A DNA stretch of 20,000 nucleotides from an uncultured virus (IMG/VR IMGVR_UViG_3300044630_001353) (IMGVR_UViG_3300044630_001353), one strand, 5' to 3'. Counted from the first letter of the stretch, positions 3 through 19,966 are shown. Numbers and translations: made by a program. The notes: generated from the letters alone by a model not told the origin.

Positions 3-3000
3 GAGCCTCAACGTGTGGCAGTTAAGAACCTTGTCATCAGCGCTGCTCAGCAAGTCAACCTGAAGCCGTATCAGGTGCAGTCAGTGTTGTGGTTCTATGA
101 ACAGCAACTCTTTAACAAACTTGGAACAGGAGCGAAGAGCTATGGATTCAGTGACGGTGCAAAAAAATTCGTTGAAACGCAAGGAGCTGGAAGCGGAAAA
201 GTGCCTCCTCCAACTGGGGGTGGTAATGCGCCAGCGAACAAACCAGCCGGACAGCGAGCAGGACAGGCAAGCGCTCCAGCGAGTCAACAACCTGCTGGCA
301 AACCTAAAAAGCTAAGCTTAGGTGTGGTGGGCGAAGTTGCCCCCAACCCTGACCACCCAACCGCCGCACAGTGGCGTGAGATGACGCAATCAGAACGTTT
401 AAACGCTACAACTGCGGTGGCCAGAAAGGTGATGAACGGCATCTTTGACGAGCTGAACCTTCAAGGCTACAAGTTTAAATTCTCTACCGGTACTTATGAA
501 GGTGAAATGAACCCCAACATTATTGTTGAGGCACCTGCAGACGCCAGCCTTGAGGAGCTTAATGAGCTAGCACGTGTCATGGGTTACGCCCTTGACCAAA
601 AAGCCATGGTCGTGTTTGATGATGAGAACACCAGCTCTGAAAATCAAGAAGGCCATGTCATGATAAAAGTGCCCGAGGGCATGAGCGAGGAAGTTTTTGA
701 CGCATTACGCGACCACATTGGTCGTGCCGTACCACAAGTTGAAGGCGACACCTTGCGTGATGGCATGTTGTATTTTGGCAATTTTTCCGCTTACAACGAC
801 AACATTGAAACGGTTACTGACAGACAGTATTATGATGCTATTAAAGATGCTGTCGCAACATTTGACTACGATGGCGACATTGAGATTTACGAGCCTCAGC
901 GGTTCCACAGTGAATTGATTTGGCCTGCAAACAGAGAAGCCTATTTAGAGGGGACACGCTATGGCGCGAGTAATCGAGAAGAAGTACCAGCAGGGGCAGA
1001 GGCCGTTCGGGGGTTCGGGGGTCGCCGTCTTCAGACCTTATCGGAAGACGCAATCGCCCTCAGAGACCGTTGGATTGACGCCCGAGGATCGGCTCGCCTC
1101 GGCGGCAGAAGCCAGCCTAATGCGACAAGTTATGGCGAACCAACAGCCGAGTATGGCACAGCAACGCCCGACTCAACCTCAGTCACAGGCGTCCACTTCA
1201 GCAAGCAAGCAAGAGCCTCAATAAACTCTGGCTTTTACGGCAACGGACTGCGCGGTTTAGAGTCCGAGCGTTTAAATGACCCAGCTAATTCCGACATCCG
1301 CTCACGTGCGTATTTTTACGTAGACACCGGAAAAGGTGTACGTCCGGAGGCTGGTGTTGGTGGCGTACCACACGTCATTCAACTAAACAATCTGTACGAT
1401 GCGCAGAAAGACCCGTTGCAGATCGTTAAGAATGTACGTGGTACCACAGCCGAGGAACGCGCTGACAGGCTAGAGCGTGGCATTATGAATGCTGGCTTTG
1501 ATGGTTACGTGACCCGCGACCCAATCATGAGCCAAGGTTTTGCGGTGTTGATTGGCAATCACAACATCAAGACTGGTCAAAAATACAGCCTGCAAGAAGC
1601 CCCAGATACGCCTGAGTTTAAACGGTGGTTTGGTGACAGCAAGGTTGTGGATGCTGATGGCAAGCCTTTAGTTGTTTACCACGCAACATCTGATGACTTT
1701 GATAGCTTTGACCCCTCCCAAGACAGAAGAGAAAATGGTTTAATTTTCTTTGCCGAAGATTCTGCTAATGCAGAAGCAACAAGATTTTTTGACAAGAGAG
1801 AAGCAACGCAGGTTATGCCTGTGTATTTACAAATTAAGAAAATGTTTAACGGACTTCAAGGAGTTCCCAAAGAACTGCAAAACTGGATATTGTCAAACAA
1901 AAATAATTTAAAAAAAGAGCTAAACCAATACGAGCAAGATTGGGGCTTGGCACTGAGCGCCTTAGACTATCTTGACAAGGATGACACGGGCAATTTCAAC
2001 CCTAAAAATTACATCAAAGCAATAGCCAGTGGCGAATGGCAGGCAATTGAGGCATCCAAGTCTTTAATTAACAAAATTAAAGAGCTTGGTTATGACGGCA
2101 TCAAGATGTATGAAGACGGCAATACCTACGCCGTATTTAAACCTACGCAAATCAAATCAGCCACAGGCAACATTGGTACGTTTGACGCCACCAACCCCGA
2201 CATTCGTTACAGTCTTCGGGCAGTGGAGGACACACCTAACTTTAAACGCTTCTTTAAAGAGAGCAAGTTCGTGGACAACAACGGCAACCCGTTGACGATG
2301 TACCACGCAACCAACGCCGACATTGTTGAGTTCAACAGCTCTGAGGACGGCAAGCTTGGCGCTGGCATTTACTTGTCATCAGCCCCTGACTATGTGACGC
2401 AGTACGCCCCCGAGGGCAATGTAATGCCTTTGTACGCAAGCGCACAGAACCCTTACGTTTTAAACATCCGCAGTGAAGCTGTTAAGAGCACCTTGCAAAG
2501 CAAGTTGCCTTTTGTCAATGGCATCAACAAGCAGATGGAAGAGGCCGTCACCAAACTTACTGACGGTAAGAAACGTTTAAAGGACCTAAACGGGGAGCAG
2601 GTTCGTAATTTGTTTAAACGCAATGGCTACGACGGCATCATCGCCCGGGACGACGCGGGCAACATCATTGAAGCTACAGTGTTTAAACCTCAGCAGGTAA
2701 AGTCTGCGATTGGTAACGTTGGAACCTTTAGCCCAAAGAGCAAAGACATCCGCTACAGCTTGCGTGATGCCACCGATATGTTTACCGGCAAAGAACTCGA
2801 CAAAGCTTCCAAGACTGAATATAAGGGCCGCTACAAGCTGGTCAACATGCCTATTGATGACTTCTTAAAGTTGTCAAAAATTGCTGGTCAAGACGCCGGT
2901 GCGCAAGGCAGGGCTGATGAAAGAGTGCAAGCTGGTACACCATTTACCAGTGTGCCTTACTTGTACGTAGACCCTGACGGTACTGATTTGCGTGTGACCG

Positions 3001-5810
3001 GACACGATGGCAGACACCGCGCCCGTGCTTTAAAGAGTGCAGGCTACGACACCATGCCAGTCGAATTGCGTAGCATGATCCGCTGGTCGGAGCAGGCTGA
3101 CCCTGAGAGCGCGGATTACCAAGAGACTTGGCCTGAGCGCATCTATGCCGAGGAAGGCGCTCTGCGTGAAGGCGCATCTATCCCCATGCCGGTTACACGG
3201 GAAGAGTCGCCAAAAAACTACACAGCGCCAACCAAGAAACTGAGCGTGCGCAGTGTTGAAGACAGAATTAAGGCTCTGCCTAACGGTGACAAAATGCACC
3301 AAGCGGTATCCAGTAAGACTACGGTCCGCGAGGAGAAGAGCATTGCTCAGCGCATCCTTGATGCATTTGCAGGCGATAGCATTGCATCCATACGCCAGCA
3401 GGCGTTTAACCGCTACAACCAACTGAGCGTCTATGACAAGCGTTTGGCTGATCAAATGGGTGGGGTAGAGTTGTTGGCTGACTCCAGCGCGGAGGCGGCG
3501 GCGTTGCTTTCAGATACCGCATCAGGCGTAGCGGCGGCGGCCTTTGGTGTAAACAATATTGGCGGTGCCCCCGTGTATCGTAACGGCGTTACAGTCGTAG
3601 ATAACTTTGACGGCAAAGTCAAGGGCTTGATGGACATCCTCATGCCGTTGGCTGAGTTAAAAGACCCATACGCTTACCGCGCCTTCCAGTTCTATGCGGC
3701 ATCCAAACGCGGTACCCGCTTTGACAATGACGGCAAAGAGAAGTTGTTTGACAAAGATGATTTTGCTCACGCAGCGGCATTGGAAACAGAATTTCCTATG
3801 TTTAAACAGGTACACAAGGACTGGATTGCGTACAACGACAAGCTTGTTGATTACATGGTGGCTACTGGCATCATTAGTAAAGACAAGGCTAAAGAGTTCA
3901 CCAAGTACGCTGACTACATTCCGTTCTACCGCCAGCTTGAAGGTCAGGACACCATTGGCCCTAGAGTCTTCCAAAGCATCTCAGGCGTCAAGACTCCTAA
4001 AAAGCTCAAGGGTGGCGAGGCCCCGTTAGCTGACTTCATGGAAACCATTGTCCGCAACACTCAGTCCATCATCCAAGCAGGCATGAAGAACACTGCCGGT
4101 CAAAAGGCTGTGGGTGTGGCAATGCAGTTGGGTGATGCCGAGTTACTGCCCAAACAGTCAAGCGCTCCCGGAACAATTACCATCATGCGCAATGGTGAAT
4201 ACGAATCCTACGGTGTGGCCGACGAGCTGTTTGTAAACTCAGTGAAGAGTTTAAACATGCCTGATGTGCAGCTTTGGGGAATTTTTGCTGGCCCAGCCGG
4301 GTTACTGCGTAGCATGGTTACCAAAGACCCCGGCTTCATGTTAGCCAACTTGTTGCGTGACTCGATGTCAGCCTACGTAACGAGCGGTGTCAAGATGACC
4401 CCTGTTGCTGACACCGTAGCTAATTTTGGACGCGCATTGGGCGGGGAAGACCCAACATACATAGCGCTGGTAAAAGCCGGCATTTTGGGTGGATACGACT
4501 ACGCCCAAGGGGTAGAGAGAAGTGGCAGTCAATTGTCCGCAGACCTTCGCAAACGGGTGGGCAACCAATCGCTAAGTGAACGCGCCATGGATGGTTTTGG
4601 CTTGTGGAGTGCGCTTGAAAAAGGAACCTCTGCGTCCGATGCCGCTACCCGCATGGCTGTTTACAACCAAGTCCTTAAAGACACAGGCAACGAGGCTGAG
4701 GCAATCTTCCGCGCACTTGAGGTGATGAACTTCAACCGCAAGGGTGCTAACCCTATGATCCGTCTACTTACTGCCGCAATCCCCTTCCTAAACGCACGTA
4801 TGCAGGGCTTGGATATTTTCTACCGCGCAGGCATCCGACCCTCCTTTGAACAGAACCCAACCGAGCGTCAGAAAGCAATACAGAAAACGTTTTGGACACG
4901 TGGTATGTACCTCACCTCATTGAGTGTTGCGTACTGGGCAATGACCCATGACGACGATGACTACAAGAAGCAAGAGCAAGAGACCCGCGATAACAACTGG
5001 CTGATCCCATCGTTGGGTGTAAAGATTCCAATCCCGTTTGAGGTGGGTGTGCTGTTTAAAGTAATACCTGAACGCATGCTGGGTTACTACTTAGGCGACG
5101 ATACAGGCAAAGACTTTGCAGACTCAATGGGACGTGCGGCTTGGAGCACCTTTGGCTTCTTGCCAGTGCCTCAGACTGCGTTGCCAATGCTTGAGGCGGC
5201 AACCAATTATTCTTTCTACACAGGTAGAAACATTGTCGGTGCCGGCATGGAGGGGGTCTTCCCTGAGTTCCAAAAAGGTCCAAGCACCTCTAAGGTTGCA
5301 ACGCTTTTGGGTGAACAACTGGGTATTTCCCCCATGAAAGTGGATCACATGATCAAGGGGTATACCGGAACGATTGGTACCTACATGGTGGACGTCATTG
5401 ATTCGATTGGTGATTTAAACAGCGAGTCTCCTAAAGCTGCCAAGCGTTTTGAGCAGATGCCTGTGATTAAACGCTTTGCTGTAGACCCTGAAGCCAAAGG
5501 TCAAGTTACCGCTTACTACAAGTTAAAAGACGCAGTCGATGAAACTGTCCGGACAATTAACTTGTTGGAAAGAACTGGACGGTATGAAGAGCTAGCGGAG
5601 TATGGTCAGAAAAATGCCAAACTCTTTGCCTCTCGCCAATACATTTCCGGCATGGAAAAGCAAATGAAGCAAATGCGTGAAGCCGCACTGCAAGTTAACA
5701 GTTCCACTATGAGTGCTGAGGAGAAGCGGGCAACCTTGAGCGCAATCAATCAGGCTCAAATTAAGCTGACCGAGCACGTTCAAGGTGTTAAGAAGATGTT
5801 GTCAGAGTAA
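3..5810 (+). CDS. Giant polyvalent phage protein, 5'-truncated (ART-like module, two ART-PolyVal-like modules, ParB-like module, C-terminal LPD38-like region); probably virion-injected
   Basis: Frame is open from the window edge (EPQRVAVKN...), more than 1930 aa. Two copies of the FKRWFGDSKVVDADGKPLVVYHAT...VMPVYL...GYDGI...VFKPTQIKSATGNIGTF..DIRYS signature (about 1606-2220 and 2233-2765). A more divergent H...YFY ART-like module at about 1183-1570. GHDGRHRARAL ParB/Srx-like motif near 3000. C-terminal IPFLNARMQG...IPIPFEVG...SPMKVDHMIKGYTG is typical of LPD38. Confidence 0.85.
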   Translation, partial: EPQRVAVKNLVISAAQQVNLKPYQVQSVLWFYEQQLFNKLGTGAKSYGFSDGAKKFVETQGAGSGKVPPPTGGGNAPANKPAGQRAGQASAPASQQPAGKPKKLSLGVVGEVAPNPDHPTAAQWREMTQSERLNATTAVARKVMNGIFDELNLQGYKFKFSTGTYEGEMNPNIIVEAPADASLEELNELARVMGYALDQKAMVVFDDENTSSENQEGHVMIKVPEGMSEEVFDALRDHIGRAVPQVEGDTLRDGMLYFGNFSAYNDNIETVTDRQYYDAIKDAVATFDYDGDIEIYEPQRFHSELIWPANREAYLEGTRYGASNREEVPAGAEAVRGFGGRRLQTLSEDAIALRDRWIDARGSARLGGRSQPNATSYGEPTAEYGTATPDSTSVTGVHFSKQARASINSGFYGNGLRGLESERLNDPANSDIRSRAYFYVDTGKGVRPEAGVGGVPHVIQLNNLYDAQKDPLQIVKNVRGTTAEERADRLERGIMNAGFDGYVTRDPIMSQGFAVLIGNHNIKTGQKYSLQEAPDTPEFKRWFGDSKVVDADGKPLVVYHATSDDFDSFDPSQDRRENGLIFFAEDSANAEATRFFDKREATQVMPVYLQIKKMFNGLQGVPKELQNWILSNKNNLKKELNQYEQDWGLALSALDYLDKDDTGNFNPKNYIKAIASGEWQAIEASKSLINKIKELGYDGIKMYEDGNTYAVFKPTQIKSATGNIGTFDATNPDIRYSLRAVEDTPNFKRFFKESKFVDNNGNPLTMYHATNADIVEFNSSEDGKLGAGIYLSSAPDYVTQYAPEGNVMPLYASAQNPYVLNIRSEAVKSTLQSKLPFVNGINKQMEEAVTKLTDGKKRLKDLNGEQVRNLFKRNGYDGIIARDDAGNIIEATVFKPQQVKSAIGNVGTFSPKSKDIRYSLRDATDMFTGKELDKASKTEYKGRYKLVNMPIDDFLKLSKIAGQDAGAQGRADERVQAGTPFTSVPYLYVDPDGTDLRVTGHDGRHRARALKSAGYDTMPVELRSMIRWSEQADPESADYQETWPERIYAEEGALREGASIPMPVTREESPKNYTAPTKKLSVRSVEDRIKALPNGDKMHQAVSSKTTVREEKSIAQRILDAFAGDSIASIRQQAFNRYNQLSVYDKRLADQMGGVELLADSSAEAAALLSDTASGVAAAAFGVNNIGGAPVYRNGVTVVDNFDGKVKGLMDILMPLAELKDPYAYRAFQFYAASKRGTRFDNDGKEKLFDKDDFAHAAALETEFPMFKQVHKDWIAYNDKLVDYMVATGIISKDKAKEFTKYADYIPFYRQLEGQDTIGPRVFQSISGVKTPKKLKGGEAPLADFMETIVRNTQSIIQAGMKNTAGQKAVGVAMQLGDAELLPKQSSAPGTITIMRNGEYESYGVADELFVNSVKSLNMPDVQLWGIFAGPAGLLRSMVTKDPGFMLANLLRDSMSAYVTSGVKMTPVADTVANFGRALGGEDPTYIALVKAGILGGYDYAQGVERSGSQLSADLRKRVGNQSLSERAMDGFGLWSALEKGTSASDAATRMAVYNQVLKDTGNEAEAIFRALEVMNFNRKGANPMIRLLTAAIPFLNARMQGLDIFYRAGIRPSFEQNPTERQKAIQKTFWTRGMYLTSLSVAYWAMTHDDDDYKKQEQETRDNNWLIPSLGVKIPIPFEVGVLFKVIPERMLGYYLGDDTGKDFADSMGRAAWSTFGFLPVPQTALPMLEAATNYSFYTGRNIVGAGMEGVFPEFQKGPSTSKVATLLGEQLGISPMKVDHMIKGYTGTIGTYMVDVIDSIGDLNSESPKAAKRFEQMPVIKRFAVDPEAKGQVTAYYKLKDAVDETVRTINLLERTGRYEELAEYGQKNAKLFASRQYISGMEKQMKQMREAALQVNSSTMSAEEKRATLSAINQAQIKLTEHVQGVKKMLSE

Positions 5811-6084: not shown

Positions 6085-6283
6085 CTTGCTTGCTTAGGAA
6101 GTCAACGTAACGGGCAATTTCTTTTCCGGTGTAGTCGATGTCGCCATACCCCAGAAACCGCGCTGCAATCCGTTTAAACGCAGCCTGCTGCGCTGCCTGC
6201 CAAACTTCGTAGCTCCAGCCCCCGTCGTCCTCAAAGGCTTTAGAGCCAATGAAATCGCAGTATTCCTGTTTGCACTCAGTCAT
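6074..6283 (-). CDS. hypothetical phage protein (69 aa)
   Basis: ATG start overlaps upstream stop (ATGA); part of a coupled operon. Confidence 0.7.
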   Translation of the reverse strand: MTECKQEYCDFIGSKAFEDDGGWSYEVWQAAQQAAFKRIAARFLGYGDIDYTGKEIARYVDFLSKQDVP

Positions 6284-6679: not shown

Positions 6680-6857
6680 GCTTTGGCCTCCTTGTGACTC
6701 TGTTGGTCCAACACCCAGCACAGTACCACTTGTTTAAACTCATCTGGATGCCGCCCTCCGGGGGTTTGGCCAGATCGCATTTGCCGCACTGTTTAAACTG
6801 ATGTGTGTTGGCCGGCATACCATTTAAAGATAATTGTTGTTTAACAAAACCGTTCAT
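6666..6857 (-). CDS. small zinc-finger protein
   Basis: CGKC...CAGC; ATGA coupling to upstream gene. Confidence 0.7.
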   Translation of the reverse strand: MNGFVKQQLSLNGMPANTHQFKQCGKCDLAKPPEGGIQMSLNKWYCAGCWTNRVTRRPKHAET

Positions 6858-7153: not shown

Positions 7154-7529
7154 GTGGCACCCTTAACGCTAAACCAATTTCAGCCAACTTTTCACTTACT
7201 TCCTTTTGGCTCTTACGCCCTAAGTTTGGAAGCTTAAGCAGTTCATTAGCTGTCCACTGCTGTAGCTGACCAATGGTGTAAATACCAGCCGCCTTCAAGC
7301 AGTTCCCTGTTCTAACCGTTAACTCCAACCCCTCCACGTACTGCGATGGAAGTTGATGGTTGTTTAAACGTACCAAAGCATCCGTTCTGCTTTTGATCAT
7401 TTCTTCGGCAAGTATGTACGCATTATTGGCGACGTGACTTAATTGGTTTCTATTAGAAAACACTACGCCATTCATGGCGGCTTTCATTGCCTGTATAGCA
7501 AAATTGTCCATCATCTCTTCTTGTGTCAT
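7146..7529 (-). CDS. Protein with RNA polymerase alpha-subunit C-terminal domain (alpha-CTD) fused to a short N-terminal phage domain
   Basis: [25 protein letters not shown]...[21 protein letters not shown] closely matches RpoA CTD (LELTVRSANCLK...LLKTPNLGKKS); ATG at 7529 with GGAG RBS. Confidence 0.85.
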
Positions 7530-7612
7530 GTTGGTACTCCCATAAAGAAAATTGCTCCCCAAAACATAATCACCGCAATGATGATGTATGTCCATATTGT
7601 TGAATTTTTCAT
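7526..7612 (-). CDS. 28-aa single-pass membrane peptide ([28 protein letters not shown]); not in ORF track
   Basis: Manual translation; ATGA overlaps with both flanking genes; fills the gap exactly. Confidence 0.65.
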
Positions 7613-7982: not shown

Positions 7983-8185
7983 TCACCCAGCTCCTCAAAT
8001 AGTTGATTAGTTAACTCCCTGACACGGGCAATAACCACGGCCATGTCAGCCTTGTGTGTAAACTCACCAGTCACAGCCATCTTGATGTTGGTCAGGGACT
8101 TGTACATGACAGGCCCCTTTAAAGCAAACAGCAAGTTGTCCTCGTCCTCGGGGTAGGTAAACTCAATGATGGCTTTGGTTTTCAT
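7979..8185 (-). CDS. hypothetical phage protein (68 aa)
   Basis: MKTKAIIEFTYPEDED..LFALKG; coupled operon position. Confidence 0.7.
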   Translation of the reverse strand: MKTKAIIEFTYPEDEDNLLFALKGPVMYKSLTNIKMAVTGEFTHKADMAVVIARVRELTNQLFEELGE

Positions 8186-8339
8186 GCAGGCGTCCCATCG
8201 GTTTAAACGTTAACCACTTGTCGCCCAATCTCAACACAGCCCGTACCCATTGGCGTTGGTTGTGTTGGTTGGTGTGATCGGGGGCAAATTCATTGTTAAA
8301 GAGTTTCCGTGCCTTCTGACGCAGTTGTTGTGTGTGCAT
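8163..8339 (-). CDS. hypothetical phage protein
   Basis: ATG at 8339 after CAGGAG; NQHNQRQWVRAVLRLGDKWL. Confidence 0.65.
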   Translation of the reverse strand: MHTQQLRQKARKLFNNEFAPDHTNQHNQRQWVRAVLRLGDKWLTFKPMGRLHENQSHH

Positions 8340-8562
8340 TTTTGTCTCCTGAAACAGATTCAATTAATGATGTCGGCATCTTGCAAGTAATCCAATAGCC
8401 GTCCTTGTTTAAACTGTAACCACGCTCAGTCATTTCCTCGGGGGTACGGCAACGCCTGTCCACCCCAAACTTGCCAGTCCGGTGCCCGTCAAAGGCACCG
8501 GTGCTGTTGAAATACTCCTTACAGCCTTGGCATTGGTTGCGGTCACCTTTAAGGGGTTTCAT
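8296..8562 (-). CDS. phage FDxHR-type zinc-binding protein
   Basis: CQGCKEYFNSTGAFDGHRTG...RRC motif. Confidence 0.75.
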   Translation of the reverse strand: MKPLKGDRNQCQGCKEYFNSTGAFDGHRTGKFGVDRRCRTPEEMTERGYSLNKDGYWITCKMPTSLIESVSGDKNAHTTTASEGTETL

Positions 8563-10770: not shown

Positions 10771-11623
10771 TGATTTCTCCTTGGTACTGTTTACACCACT
10801 TGCTGACTCCACAGAAATCTCCTGTGCAACGCTTTGGCTCGCCTTTGCGGGTTTCGACATATCCTTTTTCCTTTTCTGCCAACTCGGTGGCTTCTTCTAA
10901 CGTTTTAAATACTCTGATCGCAGTCTTGCGACCCTCCCTCTTCGTTGCGTAAGTTGTTTCACTCATCCAACGCTCTTCATCGGTGCAGGGCTGAAGCTCG
11001 TCACCAAAGTCATGTGCCACTCGGGCATTGCGGTGCATCTCAAGACGCTCCCGCACGTAAGTCTCAGTCCGGACTGCGTCCCACATTGGGATGTCAATCA
11101 TGATTGCCTCAGCTTCAGGGTAACCCTCGCTGGTGTCATGGGGTGAGTAGTCCTTGACGATGGCACAAATCTGCAGTCCCTTGACTTGCACCTTCTTGAC
11201 GGTCTCAACCAGCCATTTGTAAATGTTTAACTGCGTCATCCAGTCATCCTTGCCCTGCTTGACTGACCACGCCTTGACAAACTTGTAGTCGATGATGATC
11301 ACACCGCCATCGACGTGTTGCTGAAGGTCAATGGCACCGCTGATGATCACGCCATCAACCTCGGTAAAGATGCGCTCCTCATTGGTGTAGCCCTCAATCT
11401 CCTTGGCCTCAAGCTTGCCGTGCATGAAAGTCCCAAGCTGGGACGCAATCATTTTGGTGACGTCGATGGTCATCGACGCATCGTACTGTTCGCGTAATCT
11501 GCGAATCTTTGGTGGCGACATTAGCTCTGTAACGCTATACTGTGAGGAGCCCTTACTGTAATAGTTACGTGAGAGCAAAGCCACTAACGGTGCGGGTAGG
11601 TTCTGCTTGTTGGTTATTTCCAT
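10757..11623 (-). CDS. PD-(D/E)XK (RecB/Cas4-like) exonuclease
   Basis: SVTEL...GTFMH...EER...ISGAIDL...IIDYK...QLNIY; C-terminal RC..FC...WC cysteines; adjacent to the annealase. Confidence 0.85.
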   Translation of the reverse strand: MEITNKQNLPAPLVALLSRNYYSKGSSQYSVTELMSPPKIRRLREQYDASMTIDVTKMIASQLGTFMHGKLEAKEIEGYTNEERIFTEVDGVIISGAIDLQQHVDGGVIIIDYKFVKAWSVKQGKDDWMTQLNIYKWLVETVKKVQVKGLQICAIVKDYSPHDTSEGYPEAEAIMIDIPMWDAVRTETYVRERLEMHRNARVAHDFGDELQPCTDEERWMSETTYATKREGRKTAIRVFKTLEEATELAEKEKGYVETRKGEPKRCTGDFCGVSKWCKQYQGEINVPA

Positions 11624-12242: not shown

Positions 12243-12350
12243 TTTGTTGTACGTTTAAACATGCTTGCAGCGGCTGCCCGGGGAACGCCGTAAACGTTTA
12301 AACGCAACATAACCGCTGCCCGGGAACAGGTACTTTAGATGGGTATCTGC

Positions 12351-13572: not shown

Positions 13573-13772
13573 AGCAACGTGTTTACACGGTCGGTGTCGG
13601 TGATCAGGTCAGACTGGTCAGGGCATCCAACCGCAGGCAAGCCATCGCCCACGTATCACTGGGCATCATGACCATCAGGGTTGCCACACAGGAGGACATC
13701 ATTCATCAACTTGACAAAGGAATCCCAATAGAAAACTACACCGCCCCCGAGCAAATTGAACTAGAACTTTAA
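13569..13772 (+). CDS. hypothetical phage protein (MKQRVYTVG...RLVRASNRRQAIAHV)
   Basis: ATG 13569 in ATGA overlap. Confidence 0.75.
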   Translation: MKQRVYTVGVGDQVRLVRASNRRQAIAHVSLGIMTIRVATQEDIIHQLDKGIPIENYTAPEQIELEL

Positions 13773-14093: not shown

Positions 14094-14341
14094 CCCGCAA
14101 CTACAAGCAAGAATACGCAAACTACGATGGCACAGAGGCTGTGAAAAAGAAACGCGCCCAACGCAACAAAGCAAGGCGCATGTTGGAGCGTGAAGGTGTA
14201 GTTCACAAAGGCGATGGCAAAGATGTTGACCACAAAAAACCACTGAGCAAAGGTGGGACTACGGTCATGAGCAACCTGAAGGCGAAGCCGGCCTCCGCCA
14301 ACCGTTCGTTTAAACGTAACTCGGACGGCTCGATGAAATGA
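14090..14341 (+). CDS. small HNH endonuclease-like protein
   Basis: DGKDVDHKKPLSKGG...SNL...ANRS; basic N-terminus RAQRNKARR. Confidence 0.8.
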   Translation: MTRNYKQEYANYDGTEAVKKKRAQRNKARRMLEREGVVHKGDGKDVDHKKPLSKGGTTVMSNLKAKPASANRSFKRNSDGSMK

Positions 14342-16029
14342 CCCCCGCATTTGTGGAGCAATTCCATTTCAACGAAACCACTCGGGTGCCCTGCCCGTAC
14401 TGCTCGCAAGAGCGTAGCAAATCAAATCAAAAAGACATGACGCTGACGCGCAAAGCGGATGGTGCAGTCGTATTCCATTGCCATCATTGCCAAACCAGTG
14501 GCTCGGTGCAACCAACACAACAACAACTGGAGAGAAAATTGTCAGCAGTCCCACAAACCACAATCATTTCCCATAAGCTGGGCGATGCTCATTATGCGTA
14601 CCTAGCACAGCGGGGCATCTCAGCCGCAACCGCAGACCTGATGAAACTCTTTTCTGCTGATAAATATTTCAGCAAGCTAGGGCGTCAATCGGATGCAATA
14701 GGGTTCCCTTACTTTCGCAACGGTGCCCTCATTGCCGCCAAGTACCGATCATTCCCTGACAAAGACTTTACACAGGACGCAGGCGGGGCACATGATTTCT
14801 TTGGCATTGAACACGTCATCAAAGGTCAGCCCATCATCATCGTCGAGGGTGAAATTGATTGCTTGACGGCGATTGAATGTGGTTTAAACAACGTAGTGTC
14901 AGTGCCGGCAGGAGCGCCCATCAAGGTAGCGGACGGCAAAGTTCTACCCTCAGAGGACAAACGCTTCTCTTACGTGTGGAATGCGAGGGAGTTATTGGAT
15001 GCCGCACCGTACGTAATACTTGCAACTGATCAGGATACCGCAGGGCAGGCGTTAGCGGAGGAGTTAGCTAGACGCATCGGCAAGGAGAAGTGCCGGCTCG
15101 CCAAGTTCACGAAAAAGGATTTAAACGAGGTGCACTTGGGTGACCCGTCTCGGACAGGGGAGGTGCAGGCGATCATCGATGGCGCAACCGCGTACCCGAT
15201 CAGCGGAATTTCCGACGCAGCAACATACTACGAGCGTTTAAACGATCTCTACACAAAGGGCACCGGCAAGGGATTCTCAACCGGCTACACCTCGGTTGAT
15301 GAAATCTACACCGTGGCACCCGCACAGTTAACGGTGGTGACTGGGTACCCAAGCTCGGGTAAATCAAACTTCATCGATCAGGTCATGGTCAATTTAGCCA
15401 ACGCCCATGATTGGAAGTTTGCTGTGTGCTCGTTTGAAAACCAGCCTGAAATCCACATCAGCCGACTCATGGAAATCTACACCCGCAAGCGCTTCTTTGA
15501 GGGTAAGGAGCGGATGTCGGAGGCGGAGAAGGAGAGTGCGTTTAAATTCGTTAAGGATCATTTTCTTTTCATCGATACCAATGGGGAGGAGCCCAGCACC
15601 TTGGACTCCATCCTTGAGCGGGCACGTGCGGCAGTGAAGCGGATGGGTGTACGTGGGCTGATCATTGATCCCTACAACTACATTGAGTTGCCCCGCAATG
15701 AGGGCACAGAGACAGCGGCAATCAGCGACATGCTGACCCGAGTGCAGAAGTTTTGCAAAGCGCACGATGTCCACACGTGGTTCATTGCGCACCCCTCTAA
15801 GATCACCCGACAGGGCGTTGAACAGCCGCGCCCTGATGGGATGTCCATCGCAGGCAGTATGGCGTGGTGGGCGAAGACTGACTGTGGACTCACCGTGCAC
15901 CGAAAGGATCACCACGTTGAGATCGCAGTTTGGAAGTGTCGTTATCGCTGGGTGGGAACACAGGGTGAAACGACGATGCTTTATAACAAAACGGCTGGAA
16001 CCTACTCGGAGAACCTAGATGCATTCTGA
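14338..16029 (+). CDS. bifunctional DNA primase-helicase (T7 gp4/Twinkle-like)
   Basis: Zinc-binding CPYC...CHHC; TOPRIM IIIVEGEIDC and ILATDQDTAG; KDLNE; SF4 helicase Walker A GYPSSGKS, SFEN, LIIDPYN, AHPSK, IAGS. Confidence 0.92.
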   Translation: MTPAFVEQFHFNETTRVPCPYCSQERSKSNQKDMTLTRKADGAVVFHCHHCQTSGSVQPTQQQLERKLSAVPQTTIISHKLGDAHYAYLAQRGISAATADLMKLFSADKYFSKLGRQSDAIGFPYFRNGALIAAKYRSFPDKDFTQDAGGAHDFFGIEHVIKGQPIIIVEGEIDCLTAIECGLNNVVSVPAGAPIKVADGKVLPSEDKRFSYVWNARELLDAAPYVILATDQDTAGQALAEELARRIGKEKCRLAKFTKKDLNEVHLGDPSRTGEVQAIIDGATAYPISGISDAATYYERLNDLYTKGTGKGFSTGYTSVDEIYTVAPAQLTVVTGYPSSGKSNFIDQVMVNLANAHDWKFAVCSFENQPEIHISRLMEIYTRKRFFEGKERMSEAEKESAFKFVKDHFLFIDTNGEEPSTLDSILERARAAVKRMGVRGLIIDPYNYIELPRNEGTETAAISDMLTRVQKFCKAHDVHTWFIAHPSKITRQGVEQPRPDGMSIAGSMAWWAKTDCGLTVHRKDHHVEIAVWKCRYRWVGTQGETTMLYNKTAGTYSENLDAF

Positions 16030-16357
16030 CAGTTTAAACACAACCCCAGAGGGAGGCTCAGCAGGTGAGCTACCCGTTAACCAGAAACCGCGTTTAAACA
16101 AACGCGAAGAAATTGCCCAAGACTTTGATGGCGGTTTGCTTTTTTTAAGTGAGCCGGAATACGATGACGCAATCATTGGGGTTGCGCATAGGATTGGTAT
16201 GGAGGATGTCGTGGCGTACGATTCCAACAAGGTCTATGAGGTTATCGGCAAGCTGATTAACACCGAAGATCACATGGAGATATTCGAATACTTTGAGTTC
16301 AACATCTTGGGCGCGTACGTTGGCGAGCGGACACCCGTATTCATTGATGTTGTTTAA
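16019..16357 (+). CDS. conserved hypothetical phage protein
   Basis: YDDAIIGV...VVAYD...EYFEFNILGAYVGERTPVF. Confidence 0.8.
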   Translation: MHSDSLNTTPEGGSAGELPVNQKPRLNKREEIAQDFDGGLLFLSEPEYDDAIIGVAHRIGMEDVVAYDSNKVYEVIGKLINTEDHMEIFEYFEFNILGAYVGERTPVFIDVV

Positions 16358-16432
16358 ACGCTCAGGACATGCAGGACATTAACTCTGCATTATTTACTGA
16401 CGAAAGTGCGTTTAAACGCTCAACACCAAGCC

Positions 16433-16951: not shown

Positions 16952-17190
16952 GCGTCCTCCCGATTCATGTAGCGCACAAGCTCCTGAGCCGCCTCATTAT
17001 CGGCTAGACCCTGCAGTATTTCAAACATCTGCGGGGCGATGGCAATCAGTCGGGCGTTGGCTCGCATAGTCGCAACAGGGGTGTTCTTACTGTAGCAGTC
17101 GGCAACCATAGGTATTCCATAGTCGCCCTCGTAACCCCACACAGTCAGTCTGCTGACAGACCATGGGTAAGTAGTGATGTGTTTAAACAT
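16942..17190 (-). CDS. hypothetical phage protein, ANARLIA.AP family
   Basis: MFKHITTYPW...ANARLIAIAPQM; ATG 17190 after GGAG, TAATG overlap. Confidence 0.75.
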   Translation of the reverse strand: MFKHITTYPWSVSRLTVWGYEGDYGIPMVADCYSKNTPVATMRANARLIAIAPQMFEILQGLADNEAAQELVRYMNREDACE

Positions 17191-17862: not shown

Positions 17863-17864
17863 GT

Positions 17865-18059
17865 TTAAACACCTCTTAAGAGTTCGATGGGAATAACCAG
17901 CGACTGCAAAACATCGCCCTGTTTGTTGTGCACGTAGATGTGCAATTCGCTGTTCTCCAATGTTTTATCAATGAAGGCTTCAACGTAGCCGCTGTTTTTG
18001 CCGATGTTGATCACTGCGGACTTGGTGTAGTTGTCCAAGGTATCGACTGATAATTTCAT
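17865..18059 (-). CDS. hypothetical phage protein (64 aa)
   Basis: AAGGAGAG RBS. Confidence 0.7.
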   Translation of the reverse strand: MKLSVDTLDNYTKSAVINIGKNSGYVEAFIDKTLENSELHIYVHNKQGDVLQSLVIPIELLRGV

Positions 18060-18226
18060 GATTTCTCTCCTTTGTTTAAACGTGTTATTTCCAAAACGTT
18101 GTATGCCTCTTGAATGTCAAGGCGTAAGTGCTCGCTCCATGAACCGCTGTCCATGTATCGATCCGCAGAAAGCGCAAGCTCTTGCAGAGCCGCCCTGAGA
18201 TGCACAATCCTTTCAAGGTCAGTCAT
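18056..18226 (-). CDS. hypothetical 56-aa protein (MTDLERIVHLRAALQELALSADRYMDSGSW...); not in ORF track
   Basis: Manual translation; AGGAGAG RBS; ATGA overlap with the downstream gene. Confidence 0.7.
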   Translation of the reverse strand: MTDLERIVHLRAALQELALSADRYMDSGSWSEHLRLDIQEAYNVLEITRLNKGEKS

Positions 18227-18286: not shown

Positions 18287-19966
18287 TCATGCGGCAAGCT
18301 TGAGCTTGGTGAATGCAACAGAGCCGAGGTCGGCAACATTGTTGACACGCACGTTGATGGGGTAGACCTCGGACACGTCATGCTTGATGCCGATGCCTAC
18401 CGTTGTGATGCCAAGGGCGGTGCCTGAGCGAGCCTGATCCTTGGTTGCTTTGCGGTTGCCGTCACCGTCCGTCAGCACAAAGGCAACCTTGCGAGCCTCG
18501 GGGCGTCCGCGCAACAACTCATGCGCATAAGCCAAGCCGAAGAAATCGTTGGTGTCACCGCCATTGCCAAGACTACGCAACAGGGGCACCGTCTTTTTGA
18601 CAGGCATGTTGAAGGGCTTGAGCAAACCGCAATTGGAGCCGAAGGTCACAACAGCAGTCGCCACGCCAGCCTTGTTGAGGGTGTCCAGCAGGGCGTATAC
18701 CGCCTGCACCGCGCTCGCCATCAGGGTGTCTTTGTAGTTGTTGGCGCGGAACATCGAGCCGGACACGTCCAGCAAGATCACCACGGCAGAGTCCACGCCC
18801 TCCTCCTCCAGTCTACGTTTAAACAACCGTTCGTTGCCGAGTGCAATTGTGTGCAGGCTGTTGACGTTGAGAGAGCCAGCCTTGCGGTTGACTTGGAACT
18901 GGTCGGTCGCGGTGTTCTCAAACAGGCGCTTGACACCGTAACGCAAGCCAGCAGGCACAACCTCACCGATGGTGAAATGCTCCGAGCCGTGCGACACGTG
19001 GTAATCGTTGCGCTTGAGCGTAGTCGCTGGGTTGTAGGTGCCGCGTGAGCCAGCGCCCTTGGGTGCATTGATGGAGGGTTCCACTTCAATGGCTTCACAT
19101 TGAGCGCCTGTAGCGTCCACAGGGCTTTGCGCGGGGGTAGGTGCGGGGGTAGTAGCACCCTGACCCTGATCGCCTGCTGTAGAGCCTTTTGAGGGGCTTC
19201 CTGAGCCTGTTTGATCGCCCTCGCCAGCACCTTGTTGCTGACCCTGACCTTTGCCTTGACCCTCGCCCTCGCCTTGACCTTGACCTTGACCCTGCCCTTG
19301 ACCCTGCCCTTGCTGTTGCTGGGGTTGTTGAGGCTTCTTAGCCTTGGGCTTTTTGTTGACTTGCTTAAGCTGGTCAAATACCCAGCGGGCAACCTCTAGG
19401 GTGTCCTCGGAATCATTGCACCGTGCCAGCTTGACAGCGGCTTGCTCGAAGATGGGTTCCAAGCCCTGAGCCAGCGGCACCTTGACAGTGCCGTGCTTGC
19501 GCAAGTACACCGCGAGCACAAAGGGGTACGACTGTGGGTTAAAGGGTTGGAAGCGGGTGTCAGCCAGCGCCTCGGTCACGATACCGTCCATGAGCGCGGC
19601 AAGCAAGCCCTCGGCATTGCCTGTCAGCTTTTGGCTGATGGCGTTGTGCTCGATCCACGCGTCCTCGACAGCGTTGTGCAGGCTGTCAATGTACTGGTTT
19701 CCATCATTGACATTGAAGTTTGTGTACTTGCGGTGCAACAACTCATGCAACACAAAGCCAGCGTAGCGCTGGAGGTCAGCGTGGGTCAGGATGGCATCAT
19801 CCTTGACGTTAGCAAGCCTGATGTCACCGTGAGCGTTAATGCAGGCGGTTTGGACGCCAACGTGGAAGGCTACGGTCACCGTGCCAAGACCAAGGTCGGA
19901 CGCGCATTTGTGGCAGAACGCGATGATCGCGTTGCGGAATTCAAAGCCTTTGTATTTTGCTTTCAT
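18287..19966 (-). CDS. CobT-like VWA-domain protein with N-terminal HExxH metallopeptidase-like region
   Basis: GFVLHELLH...NAVEDAWIE; Q/G-rich linker; MIDAS VILLDVSGSM...GGDTND...FVLTDG; GAGGAGG RBS. Confidence 0.85.
   Translation of the reverse strand: MKAKYKGFEFRNAIIAFCHKCASDLGLGTVTVAFHVGVQTACINAHGDIRLANVKDDAILTHADLQRYAGFVLHELLHRKYTNFNVNDGNQYIDSLHNAVEDAWIEHNAISQKLTGNAEGLLAALMDGIVTEALADTRFQPFNPQSYPFVLAVYLRKHGTVKVPLAQGLEPIFEQAAVKLARCNDSEDTLEVARWVFDQLKQVNKKPKAKKPQQPQQQQGQGQGQGQGQGQGEGEGQGKGQGQQQGAGEGDQTGSGSPSKGSTAGDQGQGATTPAPTPAQSPVDATGAQCEAIEVEPSINAPKGAGSRGTYNPATTLKRNDYHVSHGSEHFTIGEVVPAGLRYGVKRLFENTATDQFQVNRKAGSLNVNSLHTIALGNERLFKRRLEEEGVDSAVVILLDVSGSMFRANNYKDTLMASAVQAVYALLDTLNKAGVATAVVTFGSNCGLLKPFNMPVKKTVPLLRSLGNGGDTNDFFGLAYAHELLRGRPEARKVAFVLTDGDGNRKATKDQARSGTALGITTVGIGIKHDVSEVYPINVRVNNVADLGSVAFTKLKLAA
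19232..19320 (-). repeat. coding hexanucleotide-type repeat (QG/EG linker)
   Basis: Degenerate CARGGY units encoding QQQGQGQGQGQGQGQGEGEGQGKGQGQQQ. Confidence 0.85.

What the first reader, a model, noticed from the sequence alone, without database searches (positions are those of the whole stretch)
397..18824. Window-wide, highly iterated palindrome GTTTAAAC embedded in coding and non-coding DNA
Seen: 27 exact copies in 20 kb by manual count. An 8-mer at near-even base composition is expected about 0.3-0.5 times, so enrichment is well over 50-fold. About 13 further copies differ at one outer base (GTTTAAAT/ATTTAAAC, GTTTAAAG/CTTTAAAC, e.g. 473, 1270, 2135, 2240, 2575, 5054, 5413, 9965, 11942, 13767, 15119, 15540), and six copies extend to CGTTTAAACG. 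The site occurs in genes on both strands and in all three codon phases: G|TTT|AAA|C (Phe-Lys), xGT|TTA|AAC (R/S/G-Leu-Asn, using the AT-rich TTA codon) and GTT|TAA (Val-stop, at 16352 and 17863). It is also intergenic (12253, 12296, 16410). This points to DNA-level rather than protein-level maintenance. Known: phages usually avoid palindromes. Iterated motifs such as cyanobacterial HIP1, Chi, KOPS, matS and uptake sequences mark dedicated protein-DNA systems. Inference: this may be the recognition site of an uncharacterised system, such as a self-marking modification, a genome-organising or packaging protein, a recombination hotspot for the encoded nuclease/annealase, or a decoy for a host factor. 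Candidate readers in the window include the ParB-like and ART modules of the giant protein and the small RHH/HTH proteins.
Basis: partly seen in the sequence, partly recalled or inferred. Interest (0 to 1): 0.9.

Follow-up and report, generated by a model that had tools for sequence, protein, structure and literature searches.

The report
Iterated GTTTAAAC docking word in phage
A freshwater phage keeps dozens of copies of one eight-letter DNA palindrome by selection on the DNA itself, most likely as landing sites for its own zinc-ribbon SprT-like protein, an undescribed protein-plus-address pairing that also turns up in unrelated phages.

Summary
The window has 27 exact GTTTAAAC copies against 0.42 expected and 1.75 under a synonymous-codon shuffle.

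The window is the early/replication arm of an uncultured ~65-kb lake phage. GTTTAAAC is the commonest palindromic 8-mer in 73 of 80 related loci.

Selection acts on the DNA:
- 65% of window sites are kept in relatives of 69-80% nucleotide identity, against 11-14% for control 8-mers.
- Amino acids are changed to create sites.

Some lineages switched the whole array to GTTTACAC, GTTTAAAT or CGTTTACG. The candidate host order is not enriched.

Earlier notes of this scan tied the word to an SprT-like zinc-ribbon protein, and I tested that:
- The gene is in 9 of 9 relatives, just beyond the window.
- 8 of 10 unrelated cultured phages with a homologue carry the word or GTTTACAC above control.
- 0 of 3 word-less relatives have the gene.

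Best reading (0.55): docking sites for that protein. The function is still inferred. A primase zinc-finger residue also covaries with the motif type and remains a rival.

The parts
397..404 (.). GTTTAAAC site in polyvalent-protein gene (R-L-N)
1616..1623 (.). GTTTAAAC site in polyvalent-protein gene (F-K)
2612..2619 (.). GTTTAAAC site, first of a pair 69 bp apart, polyvalent gene
2681..2688 (.). GTTTAAAC site, second of the pair
3800..3807 (.). GTTTAAAC site in polyvalent gene
4249..4256 (.). GTTTAAAC site in polyvalent gene
6172..6179 (.). GTTTAAAC site in small ORF 6074-6283(-)
6732..6739 (.). GTTTAAAC site, pair 59 bp apart, ORF 6666-6857(-)
6791..6798 (.). GTTTAAAC site, second of the pair
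7362..7369 (.). GTTTAAAC site in RNAP alpha-CTD-like gene
8201..8208 (.). GTTTAAAC site in ORF 8163-8363(-)
8407..8414 (.). GTTTAAAC site in zinc-binding ORF 8296-8562(-)
8679..8686 (.). GTTTAAAC site in RHH gene 8559-8882(-)
10198..10205 (.). GTTTAAAC site in Sak annealase gene
12253..12260 (.). GTTTAAAC site, intergenic, pair 43 bp apart, in the gene-poor stretch between the RusA ORF (end 12072) and the next rightward gene (12897)
12296..12303 (.). GTTTAAAC site, intergenic, second of the pair
14308..14315 (.). GTTTAAAC site in small HNH gene 14090-14341(+)
14882..14889 (.). GTTTAAAC site in primase-helicase gene, clade-specific, made by Ile-Glu to Leu-Asn replacements
15236..15243 (.). GTTTAAAC site in primase-helicase gene, CGT TTA AAC kept in 61 of 73 relatives while flanking synonymous sites vary
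16032..16039 (.). GTTTAAAC site in the variable N-terminal linker of ORF 16019-16357, conserved cluster just after the primase gene
16092..16099 (.). GTTTAAAC site, second of that cluster (60 bp)
16352..16359 (.). GTTTAAAC site supplying the Val-stop of ORF 16019-16357
16410..16417 (.). GTTTAAAC site, intergenic, convergent region (58 bp from the last)
17181..17188 (.). GTTTAAAC site in ORF 16942-17361(-)
17863..17870 (.). GTTTAAAC site supplying the stop of ORF 17865-18059(-)
18074..18081 (.). GTTTAAAC site 15 bp upstream of the start of ORF 17865-18059(-)
18817..18824 (.). GTTTAAAC site in CobT/VWA gene
3547..3554 (-). secondary word GTTTACAC (read on - strand)
   Evidence: 10-fold enriched in relatives
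8056..8063 (-). secondary word GTTTACAC (read on - strand)
8955..8962 (+). secondary word GTTTACAC
10789..10796 (+). secondary word GTTTACAC
13581..13588 (+). secondary word GTTTACAC
14338..16029 (+). T7 gp4-type primase-helicase gene; zinc-finger residue 47 covaries with the motif type (rival reader)

Best explanation
The window is the early/replication arm of an uncultured ~65-kb lake phage. Its 27 copies of (Y)GTTTAAAC(R), about 40-50 per whole genome in relatives, are cis-acting docking sites kept by selection on the DNA. The most likely reader is the phage's own ~195-residue protein made of an SprT-like domain and a C-terminal zinc ribbon. That gene lies just beyond the right end of the window, after the CobT/MoxR genes, in every relative examined.

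Shown here: the enrichment, purifying selection on the sites, gain of sites by amino-acid replacement, lineage-wide switches to one-letter variants, no matching enrichment in the candidate host group, and co-occurrence of the word with this gene in unrelated phages.

Inferred: that the protein binds the word. It would read a half-site around YGTTTA, so that the palindrome offers the site on both strands.

Also inferred: what binding does. My committed guess is a DNA-bound regulator or guardian of the early arm, acting as a roadblock or regulator in the manner of stoperators. Where the HExxH motif is intact it may also act as a DNA-tethered protease on proteins sitting on phage DNA. Because 5 of 9 family members have lost HExxH, DNA binding rather than proteolysis is the conserved activity.
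For: Enrichment and selection:
- 27 observed against 0.42 and against 1.75 under a synonymous-codon shuffle.
- 34.5-fold over a Markov-2 expectation in four whole relatives.
- 233 of 359 site-by-relative pairs are conserved (65%), against 11.4% for background 8-mers and 13.6% for composition-matched 8-mers.
- CGT TTA AAC is invariant in 61 of 73 primase genes while neighbouring synonymous sites vary. Sites were created twice independently by GIEN to GLNN, and by KLG to RLN.

Specificity profile: positions 2 and 4 tolerate no change. Position 3 T>G is enriched 10-fold and position 1 G>A 6.4-fold.

Spacing like protein sites: 196 of 1175 gaps fall at 30-70 bp (about 53 expected) and 4 fall under 30 bp (about 42 expected).

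Reader:
- An SprT-like plus zinc-ribbon ORF is found in 9 of 9 relatives G002-G010.
- It aligns with annotated SprT-like proteases of cultured phages.
- Of 10 cultured phages with a homologue, 8 carry GTTTAAAC or GTTTACAC above the reversed-word control. Caron 19 v 0, Crewmate 21 v 1, R5C 23 v 4 and Venkman 58 v 19 were counted with up to one mismatch. Intolerant (20 forward + 22 reverse matches, about 41 sites, v 0), ECO1230-10 5 v 0, Persinger 4 v 0 and MQ-4 7 v 1 were counted as exact GTTTAMAC.
- One of the two without enrichment (Psa21-HRN) lacks the zinc-ribbon CxxC in the aligned part.
- 0 of 3 word-less structural relatives (023Pt_psg01, DSL-LC04, syntenic MinM2) have the gene.
- In 6 of those 8 phages a copy sits 18-72 bp upstream of the annotated start of the SprT-like gene itself (coordinates).
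- The 4 phages that one search found enriched lack the primase part of the window's primase-helicase, so that rival is not the common factor.
Against: - No binding was measured.
- The gene is not in the window.
- Within this family I found no residue of the zinc ribbon that tracks the motif type. The residue after the conserved Arg is L/M in five GTTTAAAC phages and T/S in two GTTTAAAT phages, but it is T in R5C, which uses GTTTAAAC, and L in the GTTTACAC phage G005.
- In relatives G003, G007 and G008 no site lies within 100 bp upstream of the gene.
- 2 of 10 cultured phages with a homologue are not enriched for the words searched.
- The 10 phages were picked by me from a spread of 164 hits, not sampled blind, and only 3 negatives were checked.
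- A primase zinc-finger residue covaries with the motif type better than anything seen in the SprT-like protein.
- The lead came from earlier AI notes of this scan, so my test is a re-test, not an independent discovery.
Confidence: 0.55

Rival explanations
1. The sites are priming or loading signals read by the phage's own T7 gp4-type primase-helicase. The word begins with GTT, a primase-type start, and a palindrome serves both strands. The cluster just after the primase gene would be the origin.
For: Residue 47 sits next to the third zinc ligand (Cys48) and aligns to T7 F35-C36. It is His in 83 of 105 distinct N-termini. Of those 83, 77 have at least 0.5 GTTTAAAC per kb. Every GTTTAC-type lineage has F, C, T or Y instead. 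Only 2 of 563 primase columns behave so. Units are spaced 1.1 kb apart on average with CV 0.80, slightly more regular than random. A conserved cluster of 2-4 sites follows the primase gene. The family has no DNA polymerase by Pfam. In this enzyme family the zinc-binding domain reads the template, and Twinkle of Arabidopsis needs two cryptic bases (passages read in PMC2910064 and PMC5737085).
Against: Known DnaG/gp4 primases read 3-4 bases (PMC2910064, passages). The 4 cultured phages found enriched have no match to the primase part. The word is 3-5 times denser in the early arm, whereas priming is needed everywhere. Pairs at 30-70 bp and the near-absence of gaps under 30 bp are not expected. 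Tyr at residue 47 goes with all motif types. GTTTAAAT lineages changed the first base without a change at residue 47.
Confidence: 0.1
2. The sites bind some other sequence-specific dimer. That could be a small phage regulator not yet recognised, or a host factor that the phage titrates or borrows.
For: A compact 8-10 bp palindrome with symmetric Y/R flanks. Paired sites. The same two words form a 147-bp tandem array beside conjugation genes on another contig of the only bacterial assembly that holds a relative's contig. There is an operator-like triple upstream of a J-domain gene in a related genome. The motif changed in lineages of higher G+C, which may mean other hosts.
Against: No small early protein is both universal and constant in its DNA-reading part. 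The alpha-CTD-like protein is unique to this phage. The word travels across phages of Actinobacteria and Proteobacteria, which no single host factor explains. The candidate host chromosome has 89 copies against 70 of the control word in 4 Mb.
Confidence: 0.15
3. The word is the target of a base modification or of a PmeI-type restriction-modification contest, as self-marking or a decoy.
For: Several variant lineages have no exact palindrome at all: 0 in G005, G006, L056-L058 and L069. Their sites are destroyed by single changes, as avoidance would give.
Against: No methyltransferase or modification gene by Pfam among 95 ORFs of relative G003. Restriction pressure removes sites; it does not create 40-fold enrichment with amino-acid changes. 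Only contigs, no raw reads, were available, so modification could not be looked for.
Confidence: 0.07
4. The word is a by-product of biased mutation or repair (a ratchet as proposed for HIP1) or of an RNA/peptide signal (T_TTA_AAC is a slippery heptamer), with no DNA-binding function.
For: One-letter neighbours are also enriched. HIP1 was once explained this way (PMC5861425, section 25 read).
Against: Sites are conserved 5-fold above control words. The enrichment is regional although codon usage is the same in both arms. Sites occur in two codon phases, on both gene strands and between genes. Asymmetric variants lie sense:antisense 179:125, which is what stop codons alone predict. No flanking signal shows within 25 bp.
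Confidence: 0.03

Closest known systems
HIP1 (GCGATCGC), the highly iterated palindrome of cyanobacterial chromosomes
   Same: An 8-bp palindrome 15-300-fold over-represented. Sites are conserved within and between ORFs, so selection rather than a neutral process is inferred. One-mismatch versions are also kept, and some lineages use a different octamer. Here: 34.5-fold enrichment, 65% against 11-14% conservation, and lineage-specific variants.
   Different: HIP1 is a property of cellular chromosomes. This word is a property of phage genomes and is not enriched in the candidate host group. The sequence is AT-rich, not GC-rich. It is concentrated in one genome arm. A candidate reader gene co-occurs with it.
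Stoperator/operator arrays of Cluster A mycobacteriophages (L5 gp71-type repressor)
   Same: Dozens of copies of one short word are spread through a phage genome, mostly away from promoters, and are bound by one phage protein.
   Different: Stoperators are asymmetric 13-bp sites oriented with transcription and are read by the HTH immunity repressor of temperate phages. This word is an 8-bp palindrome with no orientation bias and lies mostly inside genes. No integrase or repressor was found by Pfam in relative G003. The candidate reader is of a different fold family.
SprT/SPRTN/Wss1-type DNA-dependent metalloproteases
   Same: The candidate reader aligns with annotated SprT-like proteases and carries HExxH in 4 of 9 family members. 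SPRTN is a DNA-binding, DNA-dependent protease (PMC5127644, abstract in a search listing only).
   Different: No sequence-specific DNA word is described for this family in the papers I could search. The Pfam match here is below the curated cut-off (20.9 bits against 25.6). The catalytic motif is lost in 5 of 9.
KorA/KorB operator sets of IncP plasmids; Chi; primase sites
   Same: Short words repeated over a ~60-kb mobile replicon and read by one protein. This resemblance is recalled from memory and was not tested.
   Different: Chi is oriented and is enriched in the host, and neither holds here. Primase sites are 3-4 bases. KorA/KorB homologues were not looked for.

Membership tests
HIP-type highly iterated palindrome | 8-bp palindrome over-represented by an order of magnitude or more | tested here: met
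   27 v 0.42; 34.5-fold in four genomes
HIP-type highly iterated palindrome | sites conserved between genomes beyond control words | tested here: met
   233/359 = 65% v 11.4% and 13.6%
HIP-type highly iterated palindrome | a property of the cellular (cyanobacterial) chromosome, word GCGATCGC or GC-rich kin | tested here: not met
   phage genomes only; candidate host MAG 89 v 70 control; none of 151 genomes of its order hyper-enriched, highest 38 in 2.0 Mb
Stoperator-type repressor site array | many copies through the genome, mostly not in promoters | tested here: met
   39-49 per genome; 21 of 27 in ORFs; no -10-like signal in flanks
Stoperator-type repressor site array | asymmetric site oriented with transcription | tested here: not met
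   palindrome; asymmetric variants 179 sense: 125 antisense, as stop codons predict
Stoperator-type repressor site array | read by the immunity repressor of a temperate phage | tested here: not met
   no integrase or HTH repressor by Pfam among 95 ORFs of G003; small ORFs without Pfam hits remain
Iterated word + SprT-like zinc-ribbon reader (earlier notes of this scan) | reader gene present in the phage | tested here: met
   9 of 9 relatives; not inside the window, whose own genome is not held
Iterated word + SprT-like zinc-ribbon reader (earlier notes of this scan) | word or one-letter variant enriched in unrelated phages that carry the gene, not in relatives without it | tested here: met
   8 of 10 with the gene; 0 of 3 without the gene have the word; sample chosen by hand
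Iterated word + SprT-like zinc-ribbon reader (earlier notes of this scan) | reader residues change with the word | tested here: inconclusive
   9 family + 5 cultured sequences aligned: no position tracks the word
Iterated word + SprT-like zinc-ribbon reader (earlier notes of this scan) | protein binds the word | not testable with these tools
   needs EMSA, DAP-seq or ChIP
SprT-like (Pfam PF10263) | match over the curated cut-off and HExxH | tested here: inconclusive
   best 20.9 bits v 25.6 cut-off; HExxH in G006-G009, lost in G002-G005 and G010; 33-38% identity to annotated SprT-like proteases
T7 gp4-type primase recognition site | trinucleotide with a cryptic 3' base read by the zinc-binding domain | tested here: inconclusive
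   enzyme is a gp4 homologue (E 4.5e-19); residue 47 covaries with the word; but the unit under selection is 8 bp and enriched phages lack the enzyme
Chi-type recombination hotspot | oriented word enriched in the host chromosome | tested here: not met
   breakpoints not at sites
Type II restriction-modification target (PmeI-type) | cognate methyltransferase or nuclease gene | tested here: not met
   none by Pfam in G003; modification itself not testable (contigs only)

The most novel reading that the evidence does not exclude
Many unrelated phages, of Actinobacteria, Alpha-, Beta- and Gammaproteobacteria, share a portable 'address plus reader' system. A short word (GTTTAAAC or a one-letter variant) is written dozens of times into the early arm. 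It recruits an SprT-type zinc-ribbon protein that works on the phage's own DNA. For example, a DNA-tethered protease or blocker could strip or exclude host proteins such as silencers, nucleases or loop extruders from incoming phage DNA. This would be a new principle of self-recognition by sequence rather than by base modification. The primase zinc finger would co-adapt because it must work on DNA occupied at these sites.
Probability: 0.3. Interest if true: 0.9.

Novelty: new variant of a known kind. Interest (0 to 1): 0.8.

Why it matters
Phage genomes are expected to avoid short palindromes. Here selection writes one into genes at the cost of codon choice and even of amino acids. Two relatives (G003, G004) carry a tRNA-Leu(UAA) for the TTA codon that the word imposes. 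It would also give a testable parallel to the 30-year-old HIP1 puzzle, in cultured phages such as Crewmate, R5C and Venkman. The lineage-wide switches of the word offer natural specificity mutants. Practically, the word predicts PmeI fragmentation patterns and may be a handle for host-independent marking of phage DNA.

Tried and rejected
- The whole genome of the window is not held. No near match among cultured phages.
- RNAP alpha-CTD-like protein as reader: rejected, because it occurs only in this phage and G001.
- RHH protein: rejected as a constant reader.
- ORF 16019-16357: present only in some word-rich phages.
- The 129-residue core protein: no family, no solved relative, atlas hits only to unnamed viral clusters.
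- ParB-like domain: not found.
- GTWWAC methylation idea (recalled motif of Burkholderiales): GTTAAC and GTATAC are not enriched.
- Promoter idea: no flanking signal.
- Module-boundary or recombination hotspot: not supported.
- Orientation of asymmetric variants about the primase gene: only G010 is skewed, and there the skew follows gene strand.
- Pair-spacing periodicity of 9 bp: confounded by codon periodicity and by repeat peptides, so not used.
- RusA column 97 covaries with the word but lies in a variable loop.
- The conjugative-element repeat has no match in the plasmid collection, and its ORFs have no kin in the phages.
- The pair in G042 lies inside a long ORF and looks like chance.
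- Read laying gave contigs only, so molecule ends, nicks and modification could not be seen. Of the 40 listed differences (532 in all), none falls in a site, which is not significant.
- Literature searches for the word or for sequence-specific phage SprT-like proteins found nothing relevant.

Full report
**1.

GTTTAAAC occurs 27 times in the 20-kb window at the coordinates given. Dinucleotide-preserving shuffles give 0.42, and at most 4 in 200 shuffles. It is by far the commonest 8-mer. Six copies extend to CGTTTAAACG.

The base before the word is a pyrimidine in 22 of 27 copies, and the base after is a purine in 21 of 27. Over 198 sites in five relatives only that one flanking position carries information. 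The unit is therefore an 8-10 bp palindrome.

There are also five copies of GTTTACAC/GTGTAAAC.

Of the 27 sites:
- 11 are read xGT|TTA|AAC.
- 10 are read xxG|TTT|AAA|C.
- Two provide a Val-stop.
- Four lie between genes.

A shuffle that keeps every protein and the codon usage gives 1.75 sites (maximum 6 in 500) against 21 in ORFs. Phe-Lys is written TTTAAA in 17 of 18 cases, and Leu-Asn as TTAAAC in 16 of 32.

Contigs from four other lake-water runs carry the same DNA, so the word is not an artefact.

**2. What the window is.**

Pfam and PHROGs identify these genes:
- the C-terminal 1,935 residues of a polyvalent protein (ART-PolyVal, LPD38);
- small early genes;
- a Sak annealase;
- a PD-(D/E)XK exonuclease;
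- a RusA resolvase (11542-12072, + strand);
- a T7 gp4-type primase-helicase (E 4.5e-19 to 6n7i);
- the start of a CobT/VWA gene.

No cultured phage is close. The structural genes resemble those of pelagiphages HTVC023P and HTVC027P. The gene order resembles freshwater cyanophage MinM2.

IMG/VR holds at least 135 related loci. These include complete genomes of about 65 kb, which I fetched.

**3. The word is a family trait under selection.**

It is the commonest palindromic 8-mer in 73 of 80 loci, at 0.24-2.16 copies per kb. Four whole genomes hold 177 sites, 34.5 times a Markov-2 expectation.

I compared the window with 52 relatives whose aligned DNA is 69-80% identical. Of 359 site-by-relative pairs, 233 (65%) keep the exact word. 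Other 8-mers are kept 11.4% of the time, and 8-mers of the same composition 13.6%. The relatives are not independent of each other, but the contrast is large.

In the primase gene one site (CGT TTA AAC) is invariant in 61 of 73 sequences while the codons on either side vary synonymously. Other sites are clade-specific and were made by amino-acid replacements: Gly-Ile-Glu-Asn to Gly-Leu-Asn-Asn in two separate clades, and Lys-Leu-Gly to Arg-Leu-Asn.

Relatives G003 and G004 carry a tRNA-Leu(UAA) gene, which reads the TTA codon that the word imposes.

**4. Anatomy of the array.**

In whole genomes the word is dense in the arm that holds the polyvalent gene and the early/replication genes, about 0.7-1.5 per kb. 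It is sparse in the structural arm, about 0.3 per kb.

Codon usage is the same in both arms. Phe-Lys is written TTTAAA in 21 of 29 cases in the early arm, 10 of 14 in the polyvalent arm and 7 of 21 in the structural arm. The difference is therefore in selection, not in opportunity.

The gaps between sites are bimodal:
- 196 of 1,175 lie at 30-70 bp (about 53 expected).
- Only 4 lie under 30 bp (about 42 expected).
- Gaps of 80-230 bp are depleted.

There are 85 separate pair families. A cluster of two to four sites just after the primase gene is conserved. It is written into a variable, low-complexity N-terminal linker as repeated x-Leu-Asn.

With pairs collapsed, units lie 1.1 kb apart on average, CV 0.80.

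Among one-letter variants only some are enriched: position 3 T>G (GTTTACAC) 10-fold, position 1 G>A 6.4-fold and G>C 4.7-fold. Positions 2 and 4 tolerate nothing.

Asymmetric variants show no orientation bias beyond what stop codons predict: 179 sense to 125 antisense. This argues for a DNA-level, orientation-free function and against an RNA or peptide signal.

**5. Lineages have switched the word.**

| Motif type | Loci | Exact GTTTAAAC |
|---|---|---|
| GTTTAAAT/ATTTAAAT | L052, L059, L069, L131, L048 | 0 or 1 in all but L048 (3) |
| YGTTTACA(C) | L054, L056-L058, L177, L125/126, partly L072 | none in L054, L056-L058, L177; 1 in L125/126; 6 in L072 |
| CGTTTACG and GTTAAAC | L073-L076 | 3-9 copies |

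At orthologous positions the old sites are destroyed by single changes. On a primase tree most variants fall in one subclade, with L052 and L072 apart. This is the quick tree, because the careful search did not finish. The common core is YGTTTA.

**6. The host is not the source.**

The only relative in 185,579 species genomes is a 7.8-kb contig binned in a betaproteobacterial MAG. That MAG has 89 copies of the word against 70 of the reversed control in 4 Mb.

None of 41 relatives shows paired sites beyond chance, except on mobile DNA. None of 151 genomes of its order is hyper-enriched for YGTTTAAACR. The highest has 38 copies in 2.0 Mb, and most fall below the control. One of the 151, G061, is flagged unpublished, and the statement does not depend on it.

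The host itself is not established, so this shows only that no such enrichment was found in those genomes searched.

In the same MAG another contig ends in a 147-bp tandem repeat. Each unit holds four copies of GTTTAAAC or GTGTAAAC, directly after F-type conjugation genes.

**7.

- The alpha-CTD-like protein is unique to this phage.
- The beta-strand of the RHH protein differs among phages with the same word.
- No ParB-like domain was found.
- Homology breakpoints do not fall at sites.

I then scanned ten core proteins for columns that are constant in GTTTAAAC phages but changed in variant lineages. This flagged two columns of the primase-helicase, both at its zinc-binding domain.

In the enlarged set, residue 47, next to zinc ligand Cys48, is His in 83 of 105 distinct N-termini. 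Of those 83, 77 are word-rich and 5 are GTTTAAAT-type. Every GTTTAC-type lineage has Phe, Cys, Thr or Tyr instead.

In this enzyme family the zinc-binding domain reads the template (PMC2910064 and PMC5737085, passages read). I therefore held a priming-signal model as the leading idea at that stage.

**8. The lead from earlier notes, and my test of it.**

A look-up of this scan's earlier notes showed that the same word had been found in other phage genomes. Several follow-up agents had tied it to a small SprT-like protein with a zinc-ribbon tail. These notes are unchecked AI notes, so I tested the claim.

*In the family:*
- Pfam SprT-like gives sub-threshold matches in G007 and G008: 20.9 bits against a cut-off of 25.6.
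- The ORF behind them (198 residues, HELCH, C-terminal CxxC...C) has homologues of 44-59% identity in all nine relatives, G002-G010.
- The gene lies after the CobT/MoxR genes, that is, just beyond the right end of the window.
- HExxH is intact in four (G006-G009) and lost in five (G002-G005, G010).

*In cultured phages:*
- tblastn finds homologues in 164 cultured phage records, mostly annotated 'SprT-like protease'.
- I picked ten from a spread of that list. Eight carry the word or GTTTACAC above the reversed control.

| Phage | Matches v control | Note |
|---|---|---|
| Microbacterium phage Caron | 19 v 0 | 17 are GTTTACAC |
| Arthrobacter phage Crewmate | 21 v 1 | all GTTTACAC |
| Dinoroseobacter phage R5C | 23 v 4 | 17 exact |
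| Methylophilales phage Venkman | 58 v 19 | |
| Streptomyces phage Intolerant | about 41 sites v 0 | nearly all GTTTACAC |
| Escherichia phage ECO1230-10 | 5 v 0 | |
| Pseudomonas phage Persinger | 4 v 0 | |
| Serratia phage MQ-4 | 7 v 1 | |

The first four rows count matches with up to one mismatch. The last four count exact GTTTAMAC.

- Pseudomonas phage Psa21-HRN and Microbacterium phage Eden are not enriched for these words. The Psa21-HRN protein lacks the zinc-ribbon CxxC in the aligned part.

*Negative controls:* three structural relatives without the word (023Pt_psg01, DSL-LC04, MinM2) have no homologue.

*The primase rival:* the four enriched phages of the first set have no match to the primase part of the window's enzyme. 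The primase therefore cannot be the common reader.

The gaps are Caron 38 bp, Crewmate 38, Intolerant 72, ECO1230-10 20, Persinger 19 and MQ-4 18 (coordinates). A protein that regulates its own gene would be expected to have such a site. In this family, however, no site lies within 100 bp of the gene in G003, G007 or G008.

**9. Reading.**

The evidence best fits an array of docking sites for the phage's SprT-like zinc-ribbon protein (confidence 0.55).
- Shown: enrichment, selection, lineage switches, no matching enrichment in the candidate host group, and co-occurrence with the gene across unrelated phages.
- Inferred: binding, and what binding does.

Because the catalytic motif is dispensable in this family, I take DNA binding as the conserved activity. 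I guess at a regulator or guardian role on the early arm, with tethered proteolysis where HExxH is kept.

The primase zinc-finger covariation is real but unexplained. It may reflect co-adaptation of an enzyme that must work on DNA occupied at these sites, or shared ancestry of the variant lineages.

Within my alignment of 14 SprT-like sequences no residue tracks the word. That is the main weakness of the reading.

**10. Comparison and novelty.**

The closest parallels are:
- HIP1 of cyanobacteria: same statistics and same signs of selection, but chromosomal and without a known reader (PMC5861425, abstract and section 25 read).
- The stoperator arrays of Cluster A mycobacteriophages: many copies bound by one phage protein, but asymmetric, oriented, and read by an HTH repressor (PMC6550527, passages read).

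Searches of the held library for the word in phages, for iterated palindromes in phages, and for DNA-binding phage SprT-like proteins found nothing on this. Subscription journals are not covered.

The scan itself has met this word before on other DNA. This window adds:
- a large freshwater family with natural word-switch lineages;
- loss of the protease motif in most members;
- the host-side negative result;
- the array on a conjugative element;
- the primase covariation.

Noticed in passing
L086:11309-11387 (-) in relative G003; L091:8210-8294 (-) in relative G004: Relatives G003 and G004 each encode one tRNA, tRNA-Leu with anticodon TAA. It reads TTA, the codon the word imposes in one of its two coding phases. 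None is in the window.
   Followed up: partly
L117:7447-7817 (contig C67 of G011): A 147-bp tandem repeat, 2.5 copies running to the contig end. Each unit has four GTTTAAAC/GTGTAAAC/GTAAAC sites. It lies directly after F-type conjugation genes (TrbI, DsbC-like, TraV, TraC, S26 peptidase). The repeat is also an open frame. No match in the plasmid collection.
   Followed up: partly
L120:281-321 (G014 contig C98): Three GTTTAAACAT repeats, 17 and 16 bp apart, upstream of a J-domain gene. A further CCGTTTAAACGG follows a terminator-like hairpin. It looks like an operator.
   Followed up: no
window 7146-7595 (-): A 149-residue protein whose C-terminal half matches the RNA polymerase alpha C-terminal domain (Pfam E 1.1e-19). 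It is found only in this phage and its near-identical record G001. It may be a phage mimic or decoy of the UP-element-binding domain.
   Followed up: partly
window 16019-16357 (+) and its kin in L001-L035: The N-terminus of this ORF is a variable low-complexity linker (Ser/Gly/Glu-rich). It carries 2-4 x-Leu-Asn repeats, each one a GTTTAAAC site. DNA-level demands seem to shape the peptide.
   Followed up: partly
relatives G002-G010 (e.g. L100:10308-10904 -, L086:8782-9516 -): The SprT-like protein keeps HExxH in 4 of 9 family members and has lost it in 5 (IAQLCR, IAQLAC, LAQLSH, VGALAH, VAQLCH). The zinc ribbon is kept in all.
   Followed up: yes
cultured phages Caron, Crewmate, Intolerant, ECO1230-10, Persinger, MQ-4: A copy of the word or of GTTTACAC lies 18-72 bp upstream of the annotated start of the SprT-like gene in 6 of 8 enriched phages. 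This suggests autoregulation.
   Followed up: partly
window 11542-12072 (+): This + strand ORF is a RusA-type Holliday-junction resolvase (Pfam E 1.6e-4, at the cut-off; the true start is probably the Met near residue 38). It is conserved in all relatives. It overlaps the 5' end of the exonuclease ORF on the other strand.
   Followed up: partly
window 17863-18053: In three of four lake-water runs a contig joins 17863 to 18053 with other sequence between. The small gene 17865-18059 is therefore replaced in co-occurring strains. The left edge falls at a GTTTAAAC site. Breakpoints in general are not at sites.
   Followed up: partly
G099 (a 2.0-Mb genome of the order of G011): 38 YGTTTAAACR against 7 of the reversed control, spread along the chromosome. 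This is a mild enrichment, about 50 times lower in density than in the phage.
   Followed up: no
window 18677-19343: Summed contig depth is 4-7 times higher here than elsewhere in all four runs. A repeat-like insertion (CCCTCG) and back-joints lie near 19259-19312 in the CobT/VWA gene. It is probably a low-complexity repeat shared with other organisms.
   Followed up: no
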